Below, one piece after another: positions 3,030 through 55,947 of a stretch of 64,000 nucleotides of DNA; positions within the stretch are counted from its first letter, which is position 1, and every line of letters starts with the position of its first letter. Both the position numbers and the translations under genes were made by a program. Source of the DNA: Leptolyngbya sp. ERB_1_1 (lineage in GTDB: Bacteria; Cyanobacteriota; Cyanobacteriia; Leptolyngbyales; Leptolyngbyaceae); the NCBI GenBank assembly GCA_040289665.1, contig PSLO01000009.1:3308-67307 (forward strand). Direction: 5' to 3'. The notes beneath the pieces were generated by a model. The model was not told the origin of the DNA and did no database searches. It saw only the letters and a list, made by a program, of their open reading frames with translations.

Positions 3030-3539
3030 TTAGTTGAGCGATCTCGATTGAACCACTGCAAACTCGCTCGAATTCGACAGGCTTTCCTGATCCGAATTCA
3101 CGCGCTCTAAAGTTGCCAAAAATTCCGGTATATTCTCAAACTCACAGTACGCAGACGCATATCGAATACACGCTGCCTCATTCAACGGCTGCAACTCTCG
3201 TAATACAAGTTCACTGATTTCGCGACTGGAAATTTCTCGATTCGTTCGCTGCTGCAACAGCCCTTCGATCGTACTCACAACCATTTCAACTTGTGGCGGA
3301 GTGATCGGAGTCCGTTTACAAATTCGGGTCAGTGCTCGTACTAACTTTTCTCGATCGAACCCTTCGCGATTTCCGTTCTCCTTCACCACGACCAACGGCG
3401 CAAACTCAACTCGCTCATACGTCGTAAACCGATGATTACATTTGAGACATTCTCGCCGCCGCCGCACACTTTGACCACTCTCAGCAGAGCGCGACTCCAG
3501 CACTCGGTTTTCTAAATTATGGCAAACAGGACAACGCAT
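3030..3539 (-). CDS. nrdR: NrdR-family transcriptional repressor (Zn ribbon plus ATP cone)
   Basis: MRCPVC...RVLESR...SVRRRRECLKCNHRFTTYER followed by an ATP-cone region. Confidence 0.9.
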   Translation of the reverse strand: MRCPVCHNLENRVLESRSAESGQSVRRRRECLKCNHRFTTYERVEFAPLVVVKENGNREGFDREKLVRALTRICKRTPITPPQVEMVVSTIEGLLQQRTNREISSREISELVLRELQPLNEAACIRYASAYCEFENIPEFLATLERVNSDQESLSNSSEFAVVQSRSLN

Positions 3540-3709
3540 AAATTTTGTCGATGATGATCAGACACATAATACAGCTAGTGTAGCAACTCTGATTATTTTT
3601 TTCGTTTGCGCTATAGACAGGGGAAGGAGGATCTTCTTCATCTAAGCTTCATTTTCTCCTGAGCGATTGATCTCTAGCAGACGCAATCTTGATCCAAATC
3701 GCTTCAACT

Positions 3710-3725
3710 TGCGATCGAAATCACA
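3710..3725. promoter_or_regulatory. Candidate CRP (cAMP receptor protein) site in the divergent nrdR/cyaC intergenic region
   Basis: TGCGA-TCGAAA-TCACA is one mismatch from TGTGA-N6-TCACA. It overlaps a HIP1-like core, so chance is possible. Confidence 0.35.
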
Positions 3726-3883
3726 CGAATTCTAAGTATCGCCGTTAGAAATCCTGTGATTCAGGGCAACTTTACTAAAGCGAACCGCGTTACTAAGCTC
3801 CCTGAGCTAGCGATGTTCCAGCCCAAATGCGGTCGATCGACAAACCGCTGGGCACCTCCCACCATAGATTGGCAACTTGGCGC

Positions 3884-6800
3884 ATGAAATCTCGTGATAC
3901 TCAGAAGCAAAAATTGCTGGTCGTCGATGATGAACCGGATAATCTCGACCTCCTCTATAGAACTTTTTATCGAGAGTTTAGAGTGTTGCGGGCGGAAAAC
4001 GGTCCTACGGCACTCGATATTCTTGATAAAGAAGGCGATGTCGCGGTCATCATCTCCGACCAGCGAATGCCCATGATGAGTGGAACAGAATTCCTTAGCC
4101 TAACTGCCTCTAAATATCCCGATATCATCCGGATTATCTTGACAGGCTACACCGATGTTGAAGATCTGGTCGAAGCAATCAATGCGGGTAAAGTGTTCAA
4201 GTACGTCACAAAACCGTGGAGTGATATCGAACTGCGTGACGTGGTAAAAAGCGCGATCGACACCCACACCCTCTTAAGAACCCGTACCGAAGAATTACGC
4301 CGCACCCTCCAACGCGAATCGTTGCTCAATGCAATCACCAGCACGATTCGTAGCGCCCTCAGCTACAACGAAATTCTGCAAACGATCGTCGAAACGATCG
4401 GCAAAAATTTCGATGTCAGCGGTGCGATCGTGTGTCCATTTCGCGATGGCGAGATTCAGGAGCAGACATTTACCTATTGGAAGCCCGCAACACCACATCC
4501 TGATCTCGCTCCGACGATTTGGGAAACATACCAAGTCGAATCGATTCCGGATGTGCAACAGTGCGATCGCATTCAGCACTTTCACGATCGTCAAGCGGCT
4601 TACGCGGTAGCAGATATTCGCTCAACGCTAATGGTTCCACTGATCTGTCAGCAGGAACTGATTGCCATTCTCGCGCTCCACGAATCGGAGAAAAGCCGCA
4701 CTTGGCAACCTGAAGAAATCGATTTAATTCACACAGTTGCGGATCAAGCAGCACTCGCGCTTTCACAAGCACACAATTATGAGCAAGTTCGTGCGCTTGC
4801 AAAACGAGAAGCTTTGATCAATACCATCACTACTGCAATTCGATCGAGCCTTGATCCACAAGAGATTTTTGCAGCGATCACTCAGCAACTTGGACAAGGG
4901 CTACAGGTTGATGGCTGTGCGCTGTCGCTCTGGACAGAAGAAGATGCCTTTGTACAATGTGTGGGATTGCATGATTCAAGCTGGCAAGGACAGAAACCGT
5001 CCGACGCGCTCTTACCACAATCAAGTGTGCCGATCGAAGGCAATCCCGTTTTGCAACAACTGATTGCCACCCAACAGCCGATCGTGCTAAACGATCTGGT
5101 TCAGCATTCAGAATTCAATGTTTCGGAGTTCCACACACCCGCCCGCGCTTTACTCGTCGTTCCATTGATTGCAGATGGCAAGATTATTGGTAGCATTTCG
5201 CTGCGACAGAATTACCAATCACGAAACTGGCAAGCCTCAGAAATTCAACTCGCTCAATCGGTTGCCGCTCAAGCTGCGATCGCAGTACAGCAATCTCGCC
5301 TTTACCAAACGACTCGTCAACAAGCCGAGAAGCTGCTACAACTCGATCGCGCCAAAACTGAATTCTTCCAAAATATCTCACACGAATTCCGAACACCGTT
5401 AACCTTAATGGTTGGACCGCTCGAAGGCGCGGTTTCCTCTAGTCAAGGTCTTTCGTTAGAACAATCGACGATCGCCCTTCGCAACTCTCGCCGTCTGCTT
5501 CGCTTGGTCAATCAACTGCTCGATCTTCAACGCTTAGATGCCGGAAGAATGCAGCCCAAATTTCAACCTTGTAACTTAGCTGAATTTGTCAGCCAAATTG
5601 TTGAGACGTTCCGCCCTTATTGCGAGAAAAAAGGACTTAATCTCATTACTCAGTTGGAACCTTGCTCAGATATCTATCTTGACTTAGAAAAGTTTGACAA
5701 GGTGCTTTATAACCTGCTCTCGAATGCAATGAAGTTCACGCCCGCAGGTCAGATTATCATTGTCGCGCTTGAAGCGATCGACGATCGATGCTGCCTAAAA
5801 GTTCGAGATACCGGAATCGGAATTCGTGCGGATCAATTGCCACATTTATTTGAGCGATTCCGGCAAGCTGAAGGATCTGAAAATCGTAGCTTTGAAGGAA
5901 CAGGTCTCGGATTAGCGCTGGTGAAAGAACTGGTCGAACTGCACAACGGGCAAATTAACGTTGAATCGAGTTATGGGCAAGGAACGACCTTTACGATCGA
6001 TTTGAAATTTGGTGCGGCTCATTTGCCATCTGAACAGGTCGTCGATACGCATTGTGAAGTGCAGACGAACCGAGCCGCAGTCGAACTCGCGGATTTAGAA
6101 GTCGAACTGCAAGACGATCGCGATTCTGAACCTGAATCCCCGATGCCTGCGGCACATGCGAGCGTGACCGAGTTATCTATTCATCAGCATCAAGCGAAAA
6201 TTTTGGTGGTGGATGACAACCCGGATCTACGCTCATACGTTTCTGGCGTTTTGAAGCGACAAGGCTATCTGGTTTGGACGGCTCGTAACGGTGCAGAAGG
6301 CTTTGAGCAAGCAAAAACACATTATCCATCTTTGATCGTGACGGATTTGATGATGCCGATCGTGTCAGGGTTAGACATGATCCGCATGATTCGCGCTCAA
6401 GAAGATCTCAAAGGAACGCCGATCGTCTTACTGACTGCCAAAGCCGACGAAGATACTCGGCTCGAAGGGGTAGAGCGCGGTGCAGATGCCTACTTATCCA
6501 AGCCGTTTAACGATCGAGAGTTACTAGCTGAAGTCCGAAACTTACTTGCACTCAAAGAAAACGAGCAGCGTGTTTCTCGAATTAACACGTATCTCACCGA
6601 ATCTGTTCTCCGTCGATTCTTGCCACCAACGTTGGTAAAGCGTGCGGCTCAAGGCGAACTTACCCTCGATCTTCGCCCCGAACCTCGAATGATCACGGTC
6701 TTGTTTAGCGATATTGTTGGATTCACTCAACTTTCAAATACTTTACGATCGCGGCGAGTCGCTGAACTTCTCAATGAGTATCTGACGGCAATGACGCGCT

Positions 6801-7351: not shown

Positions 7352-8558
7352 ATGGCGTTTTCTGCTTCAACCAATCGATCGAGACCCCAAGAGTCTCCGA
7401 TGCTCTGGCTATCCCTGGTCGCTGGATCGCTCGTGGTACATCTAGCAGCGCTTTTGATCGGTCGCTGGTATTTTTCTCAAGCCGCAAGCGCTCCAGCGGG
7501 TATGGCTCAAGCTCCCCTTGATTTTGTGGAAATCGATCCGAATGCGCCTGCCTTAAAGCGCCCGATCGCGCCGACATCCCCTCAGACCGCCCCATCGAAA
7601 ACAATTCCCCCTCAGACCGCCCCGGCTGAACCCACTCAGTCGTCGAGTTTGCTTGAGAGCTTAGCCCGTCAAGCTGAATTAGAGCGAATCCGGAGTGAAG
7701 CGCAGCGATCACAGCCTCGCAACAGTCCCGCTCCTGTCCCTGTTAATCCGGTAAATCCGCCTCGTCGATCGCAGTCCGATCAACTTCCAAAAGCGCAATC
7801 CCACTGCGCCTTTTCCACCTCGATCGACTACCCCTCCCATCCCAACTCCGGGTGGGAGCAATCCGACGCAGCCTTCTACTCCTGGCTCATCTACACCAGG
7901 AACAACAGCGCCCTCACCAGGCTCTTCTACTCCGACTCATACTCCGACTCAACCTCAGCCAGAAACGCCTAATAATCCAAATCCTGGAAATCCTGGTGAT
8001 TCTGCAACCGGAACGCCTAGCAATCCAGCACCCGAAACGCCTAGTAATCCAAATCCTGGAAATCCTGGTGATTCTGCAACCGGAACGTCTAGCAATCCAT
8101 CTACAGGCGATCCGAATTCTCCAGCGACTTCGGGAGATCCTTTATCAATTTCCACCAATGTTCGGGGTGAGATATATGGAAATCTTGCAGAAGTTGGCTT
8201 CAACCCCGGAGAGTTTGCAAAAGGGACGGTCAGCCTTAAGTCTCCTCCGCAGTTTTCCATTAAGTTTGACTATCCCAGTAAGCTCCCGGTCAGTACTCTA
8301 GATTTGCGAGTCGGACTGAAAATTACTAAAGAAGGGCAAGTGGTGTATTCCGAGGTGCTAGATGATAGCCCGTCGTTGCAGCAAGACCCCAAGCTAAAAG
8401 ATTCTAGGGTGAAGCAAGATATTCAGTCGATCGTGCAAAATCTCATCCTCAATGCAAACGCAGATGGTAGTTTGGCATTTAATGTCGATCTCGGTCTCGA
8501 TTCAAGAGGATTGGATGCTTACCGAATTATGAACCTCCGGATCAATATCAATCAGTAA
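7352..8558 (+). pseudogene. TonB-like membrane-anchored proline-rich protein split by a +1 frameshift near 7789-7793
   Basis: N-terminal TM (LWLSLVAGSLVVHLAALL), then a Pro-rich linker. After about 7790 the Pro/Thr/Gly-rich frame continues in frame 3 without a stop into ORF 8304-8558 (LRVGLKITKEGQV, resembling a TonB C-terminal domain). Confidence 0.6.
7962..8099 (+). repeat. 72-bp tandem coding repeat, about 1.9 copies (ETPNNPNPGNPGDSATGTPSNPAP)
   Basis: GAAACGCCTA(A/G)TAATCCAAATCCTGGAAATCCTGGTGATTCTGCAACCGGAACG starts at 7962 and again at 8034. Confidence 0.9.
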
Positions 8559-8600
8559 CTTGAGCAAGCTCCTACGCTTCTAAGCAGGAGCTTGCTCAAG
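8559..8600. terminator. Bidirectional terminator hairpin between convergent genes
   Basis: Perfect 15-bp inverted repeat CTTGAGCAAGCTCCT (8559-8573) / AGGAGCTTGCTCAAG (8586-8600). Confidence 0.8.
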
Positions 8601-8603
8601 CTG

Positions 8604-11168
8604 CTAACCTTTCGCTTTTGCCTCCAGATTTTCGAGGCGGCTCTTTAGATCTTGATTCTCCTTCTTGAGTTGATCAAGTTCTTCACGCAGTTGTTTCACC
8701 GCTTTATCAGCGCCTGCATTCTTCTGCACAGTCTGAATTGATTCTTCAGCCATGCGACGAACGCGACCATCGGGAGTTTGATCCGCGAGAGATTGAAGCA
8801 GCCCGATCGCTTTTATCGTTTCCATCTGTCCTAGAGCCATCGCAACCGCAACTTGAGTTAGAAAGAAGGTTTCGCGAGAAAGGGTTTTCAATCGCTCTAA
8901 AATTCGTTCTAGGTTGATGTTGTTTTGCCCGGTAGAGATTGTGCCGAGTGCGCGAATTGCAGCAAGCCGAAGGGGTTGTGGTACACCGGGCTGCGTGTAT
9001 TCCAGCATCAAATTCAGGGCAGCTTCTGAGGTTTTGAGATGGCTCAATGCCCCAACTGCGCCTGCTCTGACGACTTCGTTCCAACCTTGCCGCTGTTTGA
9101 GAACGGTATCGATCAGTTTCAGGGTTTGTTCTTCAGAGGATTCGCTTAGTCCCGATGCGGCGACTTTTCCAAAACTTCGGAGGGCTGTGGCTTCGACGTA
9201 GTAGCTGGCATCCCCTTTTTCCACGATCGAGCCTAATGCTGCATAGCTCTCTGGTGTTGCAATTTGCGAGAGACTGGCGACGATCGCGCGTCTAACTCGT
9301 GCATCAGAATCGCTTAATCCTGTGATCACAACTTCAACGGCTTGATCGAGTTTAATCGTGGCAAGGCTTTCTGCAACTTCGGCGCGGACTCCCCAGAAGC
9401 GATCGTTTTTCAGCGAGTCAGACAAGACTTTTACGGCTTCGAGTCCGCCTTTCTTGGCGATCGCTTGTGCTGCATAAAGTCGCGAAACTGGATCAGGATC
9501 ATACTGCAATTGGGCTTTGAGTTCGGGGAGCGGATACTCTAACTCAACTGTTTTGAGATGATAGTTATCGACATCAAAGCTAATAAAATCGGGTTTCTTT
9601 TCTAATGGAAAGTAGAAGCTTTGCTCTTTTTCGTGAATTCGCACCGTAAACGTTTTTTGATCAACGTTGCCATCATTCACGAAACTAATTCCGATCGGAA
9701 TCTTGAGGTCAAATAGCTCCGATTGTGATTGCGATACAGTAATTTTCGCAAGATTACTCTCAGAATCCCAAGCATAGCCGAGTTTGTAATCAGGATGTCC
9801 ACCCCGATAGACATATTGATCAAACAAAAATGCGAGATTTCGACCCGTGGTTTTCTCGATCGCTCTCAACAAATCAATCGTCTCTACAGTTCGATGAGCA
9901 TTGTCATGGAGAAAAGTTGCGATCGAGCGATCAAACAAGTCATCGCCCAACTCCGCCCGCATCATGTGATACACACAAGAACCCTTCTCATAAATATGGC
10001 GATCGTAAAGCTCGATCGCTTCTCGATAAACGTGCGTTACTAGCGATCGACGATAGCGGGAAGCATCTTCATCGAGATACTGCCTTGCTTGACCCAATAA
10101 GTAATACAGTGCTTCTTCTCGCCCGTATTCCTCTTCGATCCACAGCACTTCTGCATAAGAAGCCATTCCTTCTTTTACCCAAGCGTGTGACCAATGTTTG
10201 ATCACCACTAAATCTCCGAACCATTGATGCGCTAGTTCGTGAGCGACTAAGACTTCGGTCGTACGATTGTCGATCGCTGCACGTTCATCGAGCAAACAGC
10301 GATCGGTTAACAACGTGGTTGAAGTGTTCTCCATGCCACCGAAAATGAAATCATCAACGCAAACTTGAGCATACTTCGGAAACGCATACGGATAGCCATA
10401 CTTCTGGCTGTAAAACTCAATCATCCGAGGTGTTTTACCCATGCTGAGTCGCGCTTGGTCTTCACGCCCTTTCTCGACATAGTAAGTCACGGATTTGCCC
10501 TGCCATTCGTCGCGCAGTTCGGCAAAATCTCCGATCGCTAATGTCATCAGATAAGTCGGATGAATCTCTCTCTGATACCAGTGATAAATCTGAGTGTCTC
10601 CCCGATCTTCGGTTGCCATCAATTCACCATTCGAGACCGCAATCAACGGTTTAGGAATCTGTACTCGAATTTCTGAAGTGGCTAACTGTCCCGGATAGTC
10701 AAAGCAGGGAAACCAGAAGCGTGAATCTTCATCTTCGCCTTGTGTCCAAACTTGAGTCGGTTTACTTGGATAGTCCTGAGTCGGTGCGATGAAATAGATG
10801 CCGCGTTGTGGCTTCTCGACGTGATACGCGATCGCTAATTCAATCTTTTCACCAATTTTCGTAGGCTGTTTGAGATGAATCTGCAACTGTTCACCGTCAT
10901 AGTCAAACTGCTGCGGAACATCGTCGATCTTAACGGTTTCAATGTTAAGATTCACCGCATCTAACGTTAAGCGATCGATGCCATTGCGAATCGGATTGAG
11001 CCGAATCGTGCAGGTTCCTGTGTAGCTTTGATTAGGAATATCAAGGATTAGATCGAGAAAAATGTGTTCGACTTGTCCCGGACGATCAGGATTGTAGTGA
11101 GGACGTGCGCCCGGTAACTCGAATGATTTGTACTGATTATTCGTATCTATAGAAAATTGGTGAAGCAT
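8604..11168 (-). CDS. pepN: M1-family aminopeptidase N with C-terminal HEAT repeats and coiled coil
   Basis: GGMEN exopeptidase motif, HELAHQW...W.KEG zinc motif, YEKG, then HEAT/PBS-like repeats. Confidence 0.9.
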   Translation of the reverse strand: MLHQFSIDTNNQYKSFELPGARPHYNPDRPGQVEHIFLDLILDIPNQSYTGTCTIRLNPIRNGIDRLTLDAVNLNIETVKIDDVPQQFDYDGEQLQIHLKQPTKIGEKIELAIAYHVEKPQRGIYFIAPTQDYPSKPTQVWTQGEDEDSRFWFPCFDYPGQLATSEIRVQIPKPLIAVSNGELMATEDRGDTQIYHWYQREIHPTYLMTLAIGDFAELRDEWQGKSVTYYVEKGREDQARLSMGKTPRMIEFYSQKYGYPYAFPKYAQVCVDDFIFGGMENTSTTLLTDRCLLDERAAIDNRTTEVLVAHELAHQWFGDLVVIKHWSHAWVKEGMASYAEVLWIEEEYGREEALYYLLGQARQYLDEDASRYRRSLVTHVYREAIELYDRHIYEKGSCVYHMMRAELGDDLFDRSIATFLHDNAHRTVETIDLLRAIEKTTGRNLAFLFDQYVYRGGHPDYKLGYAWDSESNLAKITVSQSQSELFDLKIPIGISFVNDGNVDQKTFTVRIHEKEQSFYFPLEKKPDFISFDVDNYHLKTVELEYPLPELKAQLQYDPDPVSRLYAAQAIAKKGGLEAVKVLSDSLKNDRFWGVRAEVAESLATIKLDQAVEVVITGLSDSDARVRRAIVASLSQIATPESYAALGSIVEKGDASYYVEATALRSFGKVAASGLSESSEEQTLKLIDTVLKQRQGWNEVVRAGAVGALSHLKTSEAALNLMLEYTQPGVPQPLRLAAIRALGTISTGQNNINLERILERLKTLSRETFFLTQVAVAMALGQMETIKAIGLLQSLADQTPDGRVRRMAEESIQTVQKNAGADKAVKQLREELDQLKKENQDLKSRLENLEAKAKG

Positions 11169-52070: not shown

Positions 52071-53444
52071 ATGATGACTAACGTTCTCGCACATCCCGAT
52101 TCCGTGAATATTCAACCGTATCTCAGAGTGTTTCAGAGTCGAAAAATGGCGGCTCTGATCTTACTCGGCTTCTCGTCTGGTCTGCCGTTTTACTTAACCG
52201 GAAAAGATCCGCTTCAGGCTTGGTTAAGTCAAGAAGGTGTCGATTTGAAAGTGATCGCAGCCTTTAGCGTGGCGGCGATTCCGTATTCGCTGAAATTCTT
52301 GTGGTCGCCGTTGCTCGATCGCTTTGTGCCCCCGCTCCTCGGACGCAGACGCGGATGGCTCATCGTGAGTCAGATTATTTTGCTACTCGCGATCGGCTGG
52401 ATGGCATTCCAAGATACTAGCCAGTTGCAGCAAGTTGCGGTAAATTCGGCGGACGCGTGTCGAGATGAAACAGTGTTCAAAGGCTTTTGTAGTTTTTGGC
52501 AAACCATCAAGGCACTTTCGATTAGTCCGTTTTTCATAGCGGCATTGATCGTTGCATTTTTTAGCGCGAGTCAGGATATTGTCGCGGATGCGTATCGAAC
52601 CGAAGTTTTACAAGAATACGAACGGGGTGCGGGAGCTTCGGTCTTTTTGCTCGGTTATCGGTTGGCGATTTTGGTTGCTGGGGCAGTTACGTTTTATTTA
52701 GCGGGAATCATGCCTTGGCGATGGGTGTATGTGATTATGGCGTTGCTAATGTCGATCGGCATTATCAGTTCGTTAATTGCACCAGAACCGACGACGCAAA
52801 TTCGACCCCCTGAAACACTGAGAGAATCAGTCGTAATGCCGTTTCAGGATTTTATCGGGCGGAATGGATTCGGACAGGCGATCGCAATTCTCGCATTCAT
52901 TGTAGTTTATCGTTTAGGCGATTCATTACTGCGGAACGTTGCAACGCCGTTTTTACTCGATAAAGGCTTGAAGTTTAGCCCCGAAGATTTAGCCACACCG
53001 AGAGCATTGAGTATTGTAGCGGTGATCGTTGGAACGCTCGCGGGGGGAGCGATTATGACGCGAATCGGGGTGAATCGATCGCTGTGGTTTTTCGCTGTGC
53101 TGCAAGCGAGTGGAAATCTGCTTTATGTTTTGCTTGCAGAAGTGGGAAAAAGTTTCCCATTAATGGTTCTGGCAATTAATTTAGAAAACTTTTGCGCCGG
53201 ATTAGAGTCAGCGGCATTTGTGGCGTTTTTGATGGGATTGTGCAATCCGGGACTGGCTGCAACTCAGTACGCCTTGCTATCAAGTTTAGCGGCGTTTAGC
53301 CGTGATATTTTGGTTGCACCTTCGGGACAGTGGGCACAGGCAATGGGTTGGACATCATTCTTTTTGCTCACGGCAATTCTGGCGTTACCGGGGTTATTGC
53401 TTCTACCTTTCTTCGCACCGTGGAATGAACGCAAGGCAGGTTAG
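52071..53444 (+). CDS. ampG: AmpG-family muropeptide MFS transporter
   Basis: LGFSSGLP, LKFLWSPLLDR, RRRGW, SASQDIVADAYR, ATQYALLSSL. Confidence 0.9.
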   Translation: MMTNVLAHPDSVNIQPYLRVFQSRKMAALILLGFSSGLPFYLTGKDPLQAWLSQEGVDLKVIAAFSVAAIPYSLKFLWSPLLDRFVPPLLGRRRGWLIVSQIILLLAIGWMAFQDTSQLQQVAVNSADACRDETVFKGFCSFWQTIKALSISPFFIAALIVAFFSASQDIVADAYRTEVLQEYERGAGASVFLLGYRLAILVAGAVTFYLAGIMPWRWVYVIMALLMSIGIISSLIAPEPTTQIRPPETLRESVVMPFQDFIGRNGFGQAIAILAFIVVYRLGDSLLRNVATPFLLDKGLKFSPEDLATPRALSIVAVIVGTLAGGAIMTRIGVNRSLWFFAVLQASGNLLYVLLAEVGKSFPLMVLAINLENFCAGLESAAFVAFLMGLCNPGLAATQYALLSSLAAFSRDILVAPSGQWAQAMGWTSFFLLTAILALPGLLLLPFFAPWNERKAG

Positions 53445-53498
53445 CGATTCCTTTCGATGATTGTTAGGGTGCGATCGCTCATTCAGTCATCTTATGAA

Positions 53499-53607
53499 GA
53501 CTAACGGCAAAACGCAGCGACGGCAGATAACTTCGAGCTTAGGCATCAGTAACTTCGAGCTTAGGCATCAGCGATTTCCGTCCATCCGCTGCCATGAAGT
53601 GTTAGCC
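53499..53607 (-). mobile_element. Integron attC-like recombination site (109 bp)
   Basis: Minus strand: R'' GGCTAAC - ACTTC (5 nt) - L'' ATGGCAGC ... L' GCTGCGT - TTTGCC (6 nt) - R' GTTAGTC. L'' has one extra base relative to L'. Inner arm GACGG/CCGTC. The stop codon of the upstream ORF lies within R''. Confidence 0.75.
53528..53571. repeat. Perfect 22-bp tandem duplication inside the attC-like site
   Basis: TAACTTCGAGCTTAGGCATCAG at 53528-53549 and 53550-53571. Confidence 0.95.
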
Positions 53608-54222
53608 CGGTAGCAAAGACTGCATATCTGATATGTACACTGAGTAGTTTTTCCAGTCGAGAATCTGTATGACATCATAAGCTAAGTTCTCTTGAGGGTG
53701 CAAAGTAAGGGAAAACTGATTACCAAAAGTAGCTGCTAGATTAGCAAAACAATCTTGTATGGGTCTCCTAAAACTACCTTCCTCATAATGCAATGATTGA
53801 TTACGCCCTTGCCAAATTACATTTTTTAATTTCTCAGATCCGACGCTTCTTCCGTCAGAACAATTAGTGAGATTACCATGCACTTTTGATATTCCTTGTT
53901 TAGCAATTTGTAGTAAGGCTCCACATAGAGCATTGATAGAATCTTTCTTAATGTCGATCGATAATTCCAACCGCTTTATCTCTTCTTGTAAATCAGTAAT
54001 CTCTTGCTGCTCTTTAGCCCAGTTTACAAAATAGGATTGTAACTTTATCTCATCAACATCATCGTTCCACTCTGAATCCCTAAATCGCCTGTATAGAAAT
54101 TCTAGTTTGGGTTTCTTAGCTTCACATGCCAACTGAATTTGTGCAATCTGAACTTCCTCAGCAGTAATTAGCTCAACTAATTGATGAACTGCATAATCCG
54201 TATCGATTAAATATTGATTCAT
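53602..54222 (-). CDS. AT-rich cassette-like gene; coiled-coil N-terminus with R-x4-H (HEPN-like) motif
   Basis: 206-aa ORF. Three 60-nt lines counted by hand gave 32-40% GC, and the neighbours appear GC-richer. No full HIP1 site. Motif WQGRNQSLHYEEG. Confidence 0.8.
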   Translation of the reverse strand: MNQYLIDTDYAVHQLVELITAEEVQIAQIQLACEAKKPKLEFLYRRFRDSEWNDDVDEIKLQSYFVNWAKEQQEITDLQEEIKRLELSIDIKKDSINALCGALLQIAKQGISKVHGNLTNCSDGRSVGSEKLKNVIWQGRNQSLHYEEGSFRRPIQDCFANLAATFGNQFSLTLHPQENLAYDVIQILDWKNYSVYISDMQSLLPG

Positions 54223-54323
54223 AGCATCACTCTATCGATTTTCTCAATGATATTAATTTTCAAGAGGGCTTGGAGTATGGGAGATAGCTATGCTGAGTGA
54301 ACTGCCTGCACCAAGAACTTGAG

Positions 54324-54345
54324 GGCTAACTATGAATTAGACGGA
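54324..54345 (-). mobile_element. Core site / att half-site marking the 5' edge of the putative cassette
   Basis: Minus strand TCCGTCTAATTCATA-GTTAGCC. GTTAGCC is the exact complement of the GGCTAAC inverse core at 53601-53607. Confidence 0.5.
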
Positions 54346-54600
54346 TCTGACCTGTCCTACTCTGTTTCGGATTGCTCAAGCCCTCGCTTCACTCTGCCAA
54401 TAATCTGCAAGCACGATCGCACAATGTCCTATTGACTCTGCCTCAAAATCAATTAGTCTCTCAAGCTAAGAAAATTGGTGTCCCACACTGTTTGCCTAAA
54501 GTCCCAAAAATTGAATTCCACCAGCGCTGCCCAAAGTTGCTCGTACCAACGATGAGCAGCTAACAGTCTTGGACGGTTAGCACCAGTCCGGCAGACTACT

Positions 54601-54630
54601 AAAACTCCACACCCTTGAAAGTCTGGAGTT
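54601..54630 (-). terminator. Probable terminator after pdhC
   Basis: AACTCCA / TGGAGTT stem followed by a T-run on the minus strand. Confidence 0.5.
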
Positions 54631-54648
54631 CTACAACCATTCACTGTT

Positions 54649-55947
54649 CTACAAAGTCAACGATTGAGCATCGGTCTCAATCAGTTTTGCTAAATCGCGT
54701 AAGAATGCTGCTGCAACCGCGCCATAAATAATCCGGTGATCGCAAGTGATATTGACCTGCATTTGCCGACGAACGCCTAGCATCCCGTCATCATTCGCGA
54801 CTACATTTGCTCGTGAAGCGCCGATCGCTAAAATCGCTCCCTGTCCGGGCGGCAAAATTGCGTCAAACGAATCCACGCCAAACATTCCTAGATTCGATAG
54901 CGTGAAGGTTCCAGAGCTATACTCATCGGGTTGGAGTTGCTTGGTTCTGGCTCGATCGACTAAATCTTTCCAATTGCGAGACAGTGAGTAGAGATCTTGC
55001 TGATCCGCATTCTGCAATACAGGCGTGATCAAGCCGCCATCTTCCATTGCAACCGCAACCGCAACATTGATCGAAGCATTAAATCGAATGCCATTTTCAA
55101 CGTAGCTTGCATACAGCAAAGGATGTTTTTGTAATGTGACTGCAGCCGCTTTTGCTAATAGCGCAGTCATCGTTACACCTTTCGATTTCACTTGCTTGTA
55201 GAGCTTGTCGAGCGCGTCCGTGGTGATCGTATATCCCACGTGGAATACCGGAACCTCTAAACTTGCCATCATGTTTCGCACAACAGCGGTTTGTAAGGTG
55301 GTCATCGGTTGTACTTGTCCGGGTTGCGCGGGAATCGGAGCAGGCGCGGGGCGCGGAGTCGATGCGATTGTGGCAACCGGAGCGGGAGTGGCGGGAACCG
55401 GGAGTTTTGCGGGCTCGCTTACGAGAGCCGAAGGCACCGTCGCTGTGGGTGTTTTTCCAGCGGCAGCTTCGACATCTTCAGCCACGATCCGACCGTGAGG
55501 ACCGCTACCCACGAGGGTAGAGAGTTCAACTTTGAGATCTTTCGCGAGTTTGCGGGCGCGAGGAGACGCGATCGTTCTGCCATTTTTGGGTGCGGCGGTG
55601 CTACCGTTGGCTGAGGCAACGGCGGTTACAGGTTCTGGGGTTGGGGCAGGAGTGGGTTCAGGAGCGGGAGCCGACACCGCTTGCTGTTTGGCGAGTTCGA
55701 TTTCGGCTTCGGTTTCGGCTAAAAGCGCGATCGCACTGCCGACCGGGGCGGTTTCGCCTGCTGCGGTGACGATCGTGGCAAGATAGCCTTCGTAAAAAGA
55801 CTCGACATCCATATCGGCTTTGTCCGATTCGACCACCACGACGGTTTCGCCTTTTTCAATCTTGTCGCCCGGAGACTTGACCCAGGACACGATTTTTCCT
55901 TCGGTCATCGTGGAGCTGAGAGCGGGCATGAAAATTTCGTGGATCAT
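54649..55947 (-). CDS. pdhC: Pyruvate dehydrogenase E2, dihydrolipoamide acetyltransferase
   Basis: MPALSSTMTEG, lipoyl motif ESDKADM, E3-binding ASPRARKLA, catalytic DHRIIYG. Confidence 0.96.
   Translation of the reverse strand: MIHEIFMPALSSTMTEGKIVSWVKSPGDKIEKGETVVVVESDKADMDVESFYEGYLATIVTAAGETAPVGSAIALLAETEAEIELAKQQAVSAPAPEPTPAPTPEPVTAVASANGSTAAPKNGRTIASPRARKLAKDLKVELSTLVGSGPHGRIVAEDVEAAAGKTPTATVPSALVSEPAKLPVPATPAPVATIASTPRPAPAPIPAQPGQVQPMTTLQTAVVRNMMASLEVPVFHVGYTITTDALDKLYKQVKSKGVTMTALLAKAAAVTLQKHPLLYASYVENGIRFNASINVAVAVAMEDGGLITPVLQNADQQDLYSLSRNWKDLVDRARTKQLQPDEYSSGTFTLSNLGMFGVDSFDAILPPGQGAILAIGASRANVVANDDGMLGVRRQMQVNITCDHRIIYGAVAAAFLRDLAKLIETDAQSLTL

What the first reader, a model, noticed from the sequence alone, without database searches (positions are those of the whole stretch)
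53602..54222. Cassette cargo looks like a HEPN-type RNase, a candidate anti-phage or toxin protein
Seen: helical/coiled-coil N-terminal half, then ALCGALLQIAKQGIS and VIWQGRNQSLHYEEG containing R-N-x3-H; low GC and no HIP1 suggest recent acquisition. Established: R-x4-6-H is the HEPN RNase signature found in Abi, toxin and CRISPR-associated effectors, and integron cassettes are a known reservoir of toxin and defence genes. Inference: a single-gene, possibly undescribed defence effector. No antitoxin is adjacent, so activity would need a trigger. A six-residue motif alone is weak evidence.
Basis: partly seen in the sequence, partly recalled or inferred. Interest (0 to 1): 0.75.

Follow-up and report, generated by a model that had tools for sequence, protein, structure and literature searches.

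The report
Integron cassette with HEPN-like RNase candidate
A recently acquired, single-gene integron cassette in a cyanobacterial chromosome encodes a member of an unannotated, widely scattered protein family whose near-invariant R-N-x3-H motif and restriction-system and mobile-element neighbours make it a plausible new RNase-type anti-phage gene; the HEPN fold itself could not be confirmed.

Summary
The 206-aa ORF at 53602-54222 (-) is real and carries both quoted motifs. It has no Pfam, NCBIfam, PADLOC or PHROG match.

- **Family:** at least 435 clusters at 50% identity, scattered across Cyanobacteria, Bacteroidota, Proteobacteria and Firmicutes, and absent from all 60 relatives searched.
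- **Conservation:** R140, N141 and H145 are kept in about 99% of 262 homologues. dN/dS against the nearest homologues is 0.11-0.15.
- **Cassette:** confirmed. The 114 nt after the stop codon match an attC family that lies in co-oriented arrays beside true integron integrases in other cyanobacteria. This genome has no intI, so the cassette is a lone one. Homologues in four other cyanobacteria are followed by the same attC.
- **Other contexts:** elsewhere the gene sits inside or beside type I restriction-modification operons (7 of 77 loci) and near TIR, pAgo, BREX and Shedu genes and recombinases. No partner gene is conserved.
- **HEPN fold:** unproven. In the AF2 models (pLDDT 96) the motif lies at the end of a helix, as in HEPN. 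Foldseek found no HEPN or any other match, and profile comparisons were negative, though a control showed the hhalign comparison had no power.

Verdict: a credible new candidate for a single-gene abortive-infection RNase. It is HEPN-like by motif and topology only.

The parts
53602..54222 (-). CDS, 206 aa (P0001). Member of an unannotated family of about 205-aa stand-alone proteins.
   Evidence: dN/dS is 0.11-0.15 against the 85%-identical homologues.
53950..54216 (-). N-terminal half, residues 3-91. Two long helices (3-50, 58-91) predicted to form a helical hairpin or coiled coil. The second helix would be helix-1 of a HEPN-like bundle.
   Evidence: AF2 model, pLDDT 95.7. Only coiled-coil noise in Pfam, PDB and Foldseek.
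53887..53916 (-). LLQIAKQGIS block (residues 103-112) in helix 93-115. Q105 and G110 are invariant in the 78 aligned sequences (window protein plus 77 loci).
53788..53805 (-). R140-N-Q-S-L-H145, an Rx4H motif at the C-terminal end of helix 132-148, with a helix break at H145 in the domain model. Putative catalytic triad R/N/H.
53496..53609 (-). attC recombination site. R'' is GGGCTAAC (53608-53601, overlapping the TAA stop). An 8-nt unpaired spacer follows. L'' is GCAGCGGATGG (53592-53582). L' is CCGTCGCTGC (53523-53514). R' is GTTAGTC (53505-53499).
   Evidence: nhmmer 65.7 bits, E 7e-19, against a model built from 13 cyanobacterial copies. Copies lie beside intI. The L-box stem has one extrahelical base. 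Sequence read.
53528..53571 (.). Perfect 22-nt tandem duplication (TAACTTCGAGCTTAGGCATCAG, two copies) inside the variable centre of the attC. It is absent from all 13 other copies aligned.
53505..54329 (-). The whole cassette, 825 bp. It runs from the TTAGCC that follows the 5' crossover point to the G of the R' box GTTAGTC.
   Evidence: The 5' end GTTAGCCCTCA is shared with the homologous cassettes L006 and L008, and sequence diverges upstream of it. GTTAGCCC is the exact complement of R'' GGGCTAAC.
54223..54329 (-). Cassette 5' leader, 107 nt. It has no sigma-70-like promoter and no small ORF in sense.

Best explanation
The gene is the only cargo of an 825-bp integron gene cassette that was inserted, or has survived, as a lone cassette between ampG and the pyruvate-dehydrogenase E2 gene, in a genome with no integron integrase. 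This part is shown.

Its product belongs to an undescribed family of about 205-aa stand-alone proteins. The family spreads horizontally as integron cassettes in cyanobacteria and as an accessory gene inside type I restriction-modification operons and defence or mobile islands in many phyla. This part is also shown.

The rest is inferred. The protein is most likely a metal-independent endoribonuclease of the HEPN kind. The C-terminal domain (about residues 58-206) would carry the catalytic R140-N141-H145 triad at the end of a helix. The long N-terminal helical hairpin would mediate dimerisation, so that two triads form one composite active site. The enzyme would stay latent until phage infection, or failure of the linked restriction system, triggers it. 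It would then cleave cellular or phage RNA and stop growth. This would be an abortive-infection second line of defence, comparable to PrrC or RloC beside type I R-M systems and to single-gene Abi HEPN proteins.
For: - **Conservation:** R140, N141 and H145 are kept in about 99% of 262 homologues. They are the best-conserved positions, together with Q105, K108, G110 and W190.
- **One exception clade:** a vertically inherited, syntenic Nitrosomonadaceae clade (6 loci) has R changed to C, and three of the six also have H changed to F or L, while keeping N141, Q142 and Q105. Domesticated, inactivated enzymes show this pattern.
- **Motif position:** AF2 (pLDDT 95.7 and 96.5) puts the motif at the C-terminal end of helix 132-148, followed by a loop and helix 153-166. 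A beta-hairpin insert sits between the preceding helix (93-115) and the motif helix. This is the arrangement PMC3710099 describes for HEPN.
- **Context:** the gene lies between hsdR and hsdM/hsdS in two Nostoc species. It is within four genes of type I R-M genes in 7 of 77 loci, co-oriented in about five. TIR, Schlafen-AlbA, HEPN_LA2681, AbiEii-like AAA_21, BrxC, pAgo with a TIR partner, SduA and mad2 genes, plus integrases, resolvases and transposases, lie within three genes.
- **Distribution:** 6 plasmids carry it and none of 50,697 phage records does.
- **Recent transfer:** it is absent from 60/60 relatives and has low GC.
- **Selection:** dN/dS is 0.11-0.15.
- **Precedent:** a Vibrio mimicus integron cassette encoding a dimeric HEPN AbiU2-domain protein protects against T4 and T7 (preprint 10.64898/2026.03.17.712381).
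- **Soft hint:** UniProt automatic names for two family members are 'HEPN AbiU2-like' and 'Cthe-2314-like HEPN'.
- **Cassette:**
Against: - No HEPN or other Pfam, NCBIfam, PADLOC or PHROG model matches.
- The UniProt names are not reproduced by hmmscan.
- Profile searches of PDB sequences are negative.
- hhalign against three HEPN families gives probability below 1%. The best local alignment to Cthe_2314 does fall motif on motif, but it is not significant (E 0.3-0.45).
- Foldseek finds no HEPN structure, nor any significant match, in PDB or BFVD with either model.
- An always-active RNase without an antitoxin should be toxic, and no trigger or regulator is known.
- Defence enrichment was judged from aggregated counts, not from a formal background model.
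Confidence: 0.5

Rival explanations
1. It is a defence- or mobile-element-associated protein with a new, non-HEPN fold. The R-N-x3-H motif would be convergent. R/N/H, Q105 and K108 would form a different active or binding site, for example another nuclease or phosphodiesterase chemistry, a nucleotide-signal sensor, or a modulator of type I R-M complexes.
For: Two very confident models have no structural neighbour at all in PDB or BFVD. No profile links the family to any HEPN family. Q105, G110, N141 and Q142 are invariant even in the clade that lost R and H, so part of the conserved surface does something other than R/H catalysis.
Against: The motif has the HEPN-typical polar N after R and the HEPN-typical position at a helix end before a loop. 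The context matches that of many HEPN families, in R-M operons and integron cassettes. The Foldseek tests were weakened: the coiled coil dominated the full-model search, and the domain model lacked the putative helix-1. Accepted HEPN families are also mutually undetectable by the hhalign test used.
Confidence: 0.25
2. It is a toxin of an addiction or stabilisation module rather than a phage-defence gene. It would help keep cassette arrays, plasmids or R-M operons in place, with an unrecognised antitoxin such as an RNA, a host factor or self-inhibition.
For: Toxin-antitoxin cassettes are common in chromosomal integrons (established knowledge). HEPN toxins of MNT-HEPN pairs use the same motif. 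The gene occurs on plasmids and beside recombinases. The Nitrosomonadaceae clade has conserved small ORFs on both sides, 74 aa upstream and 86 aa downstream.
Against: No conserved partner gene was found across 77 loci. The cassettes in the window and in L012 hold one ORF only. No MNT or other antitoxin family appears among the neighbours. The clade with conserved small neighbours is the one that has lost the putative catalytic residues.
Confidence: 0.12
3. In this genome the cassette is a silent fossil. It would be a stranded, promoterless cassette with a decaying attC and no integrase, and it would contribute nothing to the host whatever the family does elsewhere.
For: There is no intI in the genome. 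No promoter-like site lies within 53300-54750. The attC carries a 22-nt tandem duplication and two stem positions turned into G-T wobbles relative to the consensus. The cassette sits at a synteny break, where ampG and the E2 gene are 7-8 kb apart in same-genus relatives.
Against: The reading frame is intact over 206 codons with all conserved residues. dN/dS against the nearest homologues is 0.11-0.15, although this averages over the whole divergence. Read-through transcription from upstream cannot be excluded, and expression was not testable. This rival concerns activity in this host and is compatible with any of the functional readings.
Confidence: 0.3

Closest known systems
Single-gene HEPN abortive-infection proteins (AbiU2 PF18734, Cthe_2314 PF18730, AbiD/AbiF Abi_2) as defined in Anantharaman et al. 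2013 (PMC3710099)
   Same: They are stand-alone, all-helical proteins of about 200-250 aa. The R-[N/D]-x3-4-H motif lies about two-thirds along the chain, at a helix end. They are found in R-M operons and on mobile elements. Cthe_2314 members read RRNAEIHY against GRNQSLHYE here.
   Different: No model of these families matches and hhalign probability is below 1%. The family has its own second invariant block, LLQIAKQG, and a 90-residue N-terminal helical hairpin. No Foldseek match to any solved HEPN was found.
PrrC and RloC anticodon nucleases embedded in type I R-M loci
   Same: The Nostoc homologues sit between hsdR and hsdM/hsdS in the same orientation, with gaps of 16-275 nt. This suggests a latent RNase guarded by, or backing up, the restriction complex.
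   Different: PrrC and RloC are much larger and carry an N-terminal ABC-type ATPase domain. This protein has no NTPase domain. Most family members, including the window's copy, have no R-M genes nearby.
Integron-cassette defence genes, for example the V. mimicus HNPBCG_15845 HEPN-AbiU2 dimer cassette (preprint 10.64898/2026.03.17.712381) and the 'integron cassette HEPN' family (PDB 3jrt) listed in PMC3710099
   Same: A single small gene is carried as a cassette with its own attC. In those cases the protein is a HEPN-type Abi effector.
   Different: Those cassettes come from Vibrio and other gammaproteobacterial integrons. No sequence or structural link to them could be shown (PDB searches did not recover 3jrt). 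The cassette here is cyanobacterial and stranded without an integrase.
Lone attC cassettes lacking an integron integrase (SALIN/CALIN in the IntegronFinder vocabulary)
   Same: One cassette with one attC sits in a genome without intI. The same attC family occurs in integrase-linked arrays and integrase-less clusters in other cyanobacteria.
   Different: The attC here has an internal 22-nt tandem duplication. The R' side beyond GTTAG no longer complements R'', as expected after recombination into a foreign site.

Membership tests
HEPN superfamily (PMC3710099) | Conserved Rx4-6H motif, usually with a polar residue (N, D or H) after R | tested here: met
   R140 258/260, N141 258/260, H145 255/257 in 262 homologues. 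In the 78 aligned sequences (window protein plus 77 loci) R is kept in 72 and H in 75; all exceptions are in one clade.
HEPN superfamily (PMC3710099) | [quoted passage not shown] | tested here: met
   AF2 secondary structure: helix 93-115, insert with a beta-hairpin at 126-131, helix 132-148 with R140..H145 (helix break at H145 in the domain model), loop, helix 153-166. Definition read.
HEPN superfamily (PMC3710099) | Four-helix up-down bundle similar to solved HEPN domains | tested here: inconclusive
   Foldseek against PDB: with the full model only coiled-coil hits with E above 0.5; with the 88-206 model the best hit has E 1.3 and TM 0.27 and is not a HEPN. BFVD gave nothing. The coiled coil dominated the first search and the second model lacked the putative helix-1. 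Model coordinates could not be inspected.
HEPN superfamily (PMC3710099) | Detectable sequence or profile relationship to an accepted HEPN family | tested here: not met
   hmmscan of about 45 members found no HEPN family. PDB profile searches were negative. hhalign against AbiU2, PF05168 and Cthe_2314 gave probability 0.1-0.6%. Controls between accepted HEPN families also gave 0-0.3%, so the hhalign test has little power.
HEPN superfamily (PMC3710099) | Metal-independent RNase activity dependent on R and H | not testable with these tools
   Needs biochemistry.
HEPN_AbiU2 (PF18734) | Match to the family model above its cut-off | tested here: not met
   No hit even for P0037, which UniProt names 'HEPN AbiU2-like'. 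The family was not found in G000. hhalign probability 0.25%.
HEPN_Cthe2314 (PF18730) | Match to the family model above its cut-off | tested here: not met
   No hit for P0263 or P0068. In seven Firmicutes genomes carrying the family, the model does not match at the family's loci. hhalign aligns only the motif, E 0.3-0.45.
Integron gene cassette | attC site directly downstream of the ORF, in the sense orientation, homologous to sites found in arrays next to an integron integrase | tested here: met
   attC at 53609-53496 (-), 65.7 bits. Copies are co-oriented on the 5' side of TIGR02249 intI (438-488 bits, cut-off 265) in G015, G052, G013, G037 and G029.
Integron gene cassette | attC architecture: R''/R' inverted cores (..AAC / GTT..), unpaired central spacer, L''/L' stem with an extrahelical base, variable centre | tested here: met
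   The consensus fold gives a 10-bp L stem with one bulged base in 13 copies. CTAAC and GTTAG cores flank 8-nt non-complementary spacers.
Integron gene cassette | 5' boundary at a GTTRRRY-type crossover shared with independent copies of the cassette | tested here: met
   GTTAGCCCTCA at 54330-54320 (-) is shared with L006 and L008, and sequence diverges upstream of it. It complements R'' GGGCTAAC.
Complete integron | intI integrase and attI in the same genome or locus | tested here: not met
   No TIGR02249 match in G000. tblastn with a cyanobacterial IntI finds only a 25%-identical recombinase elsewhere. Only two weak further attC-like sites were found.
Anti-phage defence gene | Recurrent location in defence islands or R-M operons | tested here: met
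   Type I R-M genes lie within four genes in 7 of 77 loci, and two loci have the gene between hsdR and hsdM. TIR, pAgo, BrxC, SduA, mad2, Schlafen and AAA_21 genes are among the +/-3 neighbours. No formal background statistics were computed.
Anti-phage defence gene | Protection phenotype | not testable with these tools
   Needs phage challenge.
Type II toxin-antitoxin pair | Conserved adjacent antitoxin gene | tested here: not met
   No conserved neighbour across 77 loci. The cassette holds a single ORF.

The most novel reading that the evidence does not exclude
The family is a new single-protein abortive-infection effector whose catalytic domain has a fold not represented in PDB or BFVD. It would be either a very divergent new branch of HEPN or a convergent R-N-H RNase. 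It would be regulated through its own 90-residue coiled-coil hairpin rather than by a partner protein, and it would move between phyla both as an integron cassette and as a plug-in module of type I R-M operons.
Probability: 0.25. Interest if true: 0.7.

Novelty: new member of a known kind. Interest (0 to 1): 0.5.

Why it matters
If the prediction holds, this is a compact, 206-aa, single-gene defence or toxin module with no model in Pfam, NCBIfam or PADLOC 2.0, so pipelines that rely on those libraries will not name it. It has hundreds of members across at least four phyla.

Its double lifestyle links two reservoirs of defence genes that are usually studied apart: integron cassettes in cyanobacteria and embedded genes in type I R-M operons elsewhere.

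The analysis also documents a conserved attC family of cyanobacterial integrons and a stranded cassette in an integrase-free genome. This bears on how integron cassettes spread outside integrons.

The confident AF2 model has no structural neighbour, which makes the protein a worthwhile target for structure determination.

Tried and rejected
- **Family libraries:** Pfam, NCBIfam, PADLOC and PHROG scans of the protein and about 45 relatives gave only coiled-coil noise.
- **PDB profile searches:** full-length and C-terminal alignments gave nothing.
- **Foldseek:** the full model against PDB and BFVD, and the C-terminal model against PDB, gave no significant match.
- **hhalign:** comparisons against self-built AbiU2 (6 sequences), PF05168 (13) and Cthe_2314 (28) alignments were negative. 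Controls between those HEPN families were equally negative, so the test cannot decide.
- **Coevolution:** mean-field DCA on 304 sequences to recover helix packing was dominated by gap artefacts and was discarded.
- **Fusions:** longer relatives gave no informative domain; the extensions look like miscalled starts.
- **Crude attC detector:** a regular-expression and stem search for non-cyanobacterial loci missed the window's own site and was discarded. It flagged one plausible attC in L025.
- **Empty site:** none could be found, because homology in relatives ends at the ampG stop codon and synteny is broken there.
- **Other readings of the downstream element:** Rfam and tRNA scans were negative. 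A single-strand fold of the window copy alone is not better than shuffles, probably because of the duplication and wobble changes.
Full report
**1. The observation**

The window holds an ORF at 53602..54222 on the minus strand. It is 206 aa long and starts with ATG. RNQSLH is encoded at 53788-53805 and LLQIAKQGIS at 53887-53916.

The coding sequence has 37.1% G+C (GC3 32%), against 47.4% for the window. HIP1 (GCGATCGC) occurs 63 times in the window and not once between 53479 and 55726. For an 830-bp stretch this absence is not significant on its own.

The flanking genes are an AmpG-type MFS permease (52071-53444, +) and a dihydrolipoamide acetyltransferase (54649-55947, -).

**2. The protein family**

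The protein matches nothing in Pfam, NCBIfam, PADLOC or PHROGs beyond coiled-coil noise. It nevertheless has many full-length homologues.

- The 5.8-billion-protein index returned 142 homologues.
- An exhaustive phmmer search returned 435 cluster representatives at 50% identity, 285 of them below 1e-10.
- The homologues come from Cyanobacteria, Bacteroidota, Alpha-, Beta-, Gamma- and Epsilonproteobacteria, Firmicutes and others. Almost all are stand-alone proteins of about 195-215 aa that the sources call 'hypothetical'.
- Longer relatives add no recognisable domain.

The gene is absent from all 60 relatives searched, including 11 of the same genus. Together with the low G+C, this shows recent horizontal acquisition. 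Against the two closest homologues (85% identity) dN/dS is 0.11-0.15, so the protein is under purifying selection.

**3. Conservation**

In a 30-sequence alignment the invariant residues are Y4, Q105, A107, K108, G110, R140, N141, H145, F159 and W190. Across 262 homologues the counts are as follows:

| Residue | Conserved |
|---|---|
| R140 | 258/260 |
| N141 | 258/260 |
| H145 | 255/257 |
| Q105 | 255/261 |
| G110 | 253/261 |
| W190 | 252/255 |

The R-N-x3-H motif is therefore the best-conserved feature of the family.

One clade is an exception. Six Nitrosomonadaceae or Nitrosomonadales loci share synteny, including small ORFs of 74 and 86 aa on either side. In all six R140 is C, and in three of them H145 is F or L, while Q105, G110, N141 and Q142 are retained. 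I read this as a domesticated, probably catalytically dead branch. This pattern is expected if R and H are catalytic and the other conserved residues are structural or involved in binding.

**4. Is it HEPN?**

Evidence in favour:
- The motif has the HEPN form, Rx4H with N after R.
- AlphaFold2 with the family alignment gives very confident models: pLDDT 95.7 for the full protein and 96.5 for residues 88-206.
- The predicted elements are helix 3-50, helix 58-91, helix 93-115, a short beta-hairpin insert at 126-131, helix 132-148 carrying R140..H145 at its C-terminal end (the helix breaks at H145 in the domain model), a loop, helix 153-166, and two short helices.
- Anantharaman et al. [quoted passage not shown] Taking 58-91, 93-115, 132-148 and 153-166 as helices 1-4 fits that description.

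Evidence against, or missing:
- No HEPN Pfam model matches any of about 45 members scanned.
- Profile searches of all PDB sequences are negative.
- Foldseek finds no HEPN domain and no significant match at all. The full model against PDB gave only coiled-coil proteins with E above 0.5. The C-terminal model against PDB gave a best E of 1.3 and TM 0.27. The full model against BFVD gave E above 0.19.
- I built alignments of true AbiU2 (PF18734), classical HEPN (PF05168) and Cthe_2314 (PF18730) proteins and compared them with the family by hhalign. Probabilities were 0.1-0.6%. The top local alignment to Cthe_2314 falls exactly motif on motif (gRNQSmH~EEG against ~RN~~tH~~~~e) but is not significant.

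These negatives have limits. The same hhalign test between accepted HEPN families also gives 0-0.3%, so it has no power. The Foldseek tests were weakened because the 90-residue coiled coil dominated the full-model search, and my domain cut removed the putative helix-1.

UniProt's automatic names for two members, 'HEPN AbiU2-like' and 'Cthe-2314-like HEPN', are a soft hint. hmmscan does not reproduce them.

My conclusion is that the protein is HEPN-like by motif and topology, and that membership is unproven. I put about 50% on a HEPN-type RNase.

**5. The cassette**

The 114 nt following the stop codon (53609-53496, minus strand) belong to a roughly 90-nt element whose two arms are more than 90% conserved in 28 of 61 cyanobacterial genomes.

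Six of the eight other genomes tested that carry the element have true integron integrases. They score 438-488 bits on TIGR02249, whose cut-off is 265, and none of 14 control genomes exceeds the cut-off. A profile of 13 copies finds the element in co-oriented arrays on the 5' side of intI and pointing away from it, as in classical integrons. Examples:
- G015: intI at 3103-3918 (-), elements at 5361, 7492 and 13329 (+).
- G013: intI on the + strand, elements at 5957 and 3070 (-).
- The same layout appears in G052, G037 and G029. Integrase-less clusters of 3-5 copies also occur.

The element has attC architecture. CTAAC and GTTAG cores flank 8-nt non-complementary spacers. A 10-bp L-box stem with one bulged base is kept in all 13 copies, and the centre is variable.

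In the window, R'' (GGGCTAAC, 53608-53601) overlaps the TAA stop, and R' is GTTAGTC (53505-53499). The 5' cassette boundary GTTAGCCCTCA (54330-54320, minus strand) is shared with the homologous cassettes L006 and L008, and the sequences diverge upstream of it. GTTAGCCC is the exact complement of R'', as expected for the circular cassette form.

The cassette therefore spans 54329..53505, 825 bp, and holds one ORF and a 107-nt leader.

This genome has no intI and only two weak further attC-like sites, so this is a lone cassette. Its attC carries a perfect 22-nt tandem duplication (53528-53571) that no other copy has, and two stem positions have become G-T wobbles. This suggests relaxed constraint on the site.

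An empty site could not be shown. In same-genus relatives homology ends at the ampG stop, and ampG and the E2 gene lie 7-8 kb apart in a different arrangement.

**6. The family in other contexts**

The same attC follows the homologous gene in four other cyanobacteria:
- L012 (Nodosilinea), where the gene lies between two attCs.
- L009/L004 (Leptolyngbya).
- L008 (Pseudanabaena).
- L010, where the site is 2 kb downstream.

L006 and L007 have a different palindromic site that begins with the same GGGCTAAC.

Across 77 loci no neighbour is conserved. In Nostoc foliaceum and another Nostoc the gene lies between hsdR and hsdM/hsdS, co-oriented, with gaps of 16-275 nt. Type I R-M genes lie within four genes in 7 of 77 loci: L013, L015, L018, L020, L029, L047 and L059. 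For a random gene I would expect well under 1%; that figure is my own estimate, not a computed background.

Among the three genes on either side in 65 non-redundant loci, Pfam and PADLOC find HsdR, HsdM, HsdS, TIR_2, Schlafen AlbA_2, HEPN_LA2681, AAA_21 (AbiEii-like), T5orf172, BrxC, a class I pAgo with its TIR partner, SduA, mad2, PD-Lambda-5 and Cas12k. They also find tyrosine integrases, serine resolvases or recombinases, and rve transposases.

The family is on 6 of 72,556 plasmids and in none of 50,697 phage records. The two plasmid contexts inspected contain only hypothetical genes.

**7. Mechanism**

Shown: a horizontally mobile, single-gene module with near-invariant R/N/H, under purifying selection, recurring in integron cassettes, type I R-M operons and defence or mobile islands, and with no partner gene.

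Inferred: a HEPN-type, metal-independent endoribonuclease that dimerises, possibly through the N-terminal helical hairpin, to form a composite active site. It would be latent until triggered by infection or by neutralisation of the neighbouring restriction system. It would then cleave RNA to arrest growth. This is abortive infection, by analogy with PrrC or RloC beside type I R-M systems and with single-gene Abi HEPN proteins (PMC3710099).

A 2026 preprint reports a Vibrio mimicus integron cassette encoding a dimeric HEPN-AbiU2 protein that protects against T4 and T7. The general kind, a HEPN defence gene carried as an integron cassette, is therefore already known.

Whether this copy is expressed is unknown.

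**8. Verdict**

- The cassette premise is confirmed and extended.
- The defence or toxin inference is reasonable and supported by context.
- The HEPN assignment remains a motif-and-topology argument that fold and profile tests failed to confirm.
- Novelty: a new, unannotated family of a known kind.
- Interest is moderate. It is a good, cheap experimental target (206 aa, clear point mutants) with a confident model that has no structural neighbour.

Noticed in passing
window 54432-54598: A dispersed non-coding repeat of about 150 nt lies just upstream of the cassette. G000 has at least 7 further copies (C183, C215, C19, C66, C50, C82, C167; 69-80% identity), and same-genus relatives also carry copies. 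No consistent ORF runs across the copies, so it looks MITE-like.
   Followed up: partly
window 53528-53571: A perfect 22-nt tandem duplication (TAACTTCGAGCTTAGGCATCAG, two copies) sits inside the variable centre of the attC. None of the 13 other attC copies aligned has it.
   Followed up: yes
L038, L041, L044, L046, L048, L049 (match at about 8001-8636 in each): A Nitrosomonadaceae/Nitrosomonadales clade of the family has R140 changed to C, and three of the six loci have H145 changed to F or L. It keeps Q105, G110, N141 and Q142. It sits in conserved synteny between a 74-aa and an 86-aa ORF. It is probably an inactivated, domesticated branch.
   Followed up: partly
window 52071-55947 versus G001:C28, G009:C1, G004:C1: ampG and the E2 acetyltransferase gene are adjacent only in this genome. 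In same-genus relatives they lie 7-8 kb apart in another relative order, so the cassette sits at a rearrangement junction.
   Followed up: partly
G015:C1:1362103-1372421, G013:C20, G052:C66, G037:C25, G029:C47/C55/C8, G030:C15 (L119), G037:C23 (L118): Cyanobacterial integrons and integrase-less attC clusters share one highly conserved attC family of about 90 nt, with arms more than 90% identical across genera. It is present in 28 of 61 genomes searched. Several intI copies carry in-frame stop codons.
   Followed up: partly
genome.fa C19:37331-37396 and C44:363-453: Two weak attC-like matches (E 2.7e-4 and 2e-3) elsewhere in the window's genome. They may be further decayed cassette remnants.
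   Followed up: no
P0004 (176 aa, 99% identical): A near-identical but C-terminally truncated copy with one substitution (L43P) exists in public data on contigs up to 10 kb. It is probably a close strain, or a contig-end fragment.
   Followed up: no
L025:8606-8709 (Ideonella MAG): An attC-like palindrome (GCCGAAC...GTTAGGC, with an internal stem) directly follows the betaproteobacterial homologue. Cassette carriage may not be limited to cyanobacteria.
   Followed up: no
window 54112-54141 versus 54444-54473: A 30-nt inverted repeat, 77% complementary, links the 5' coding region of the gene with the upstream dispersed repeat. It may be chance.
   Followed up: no
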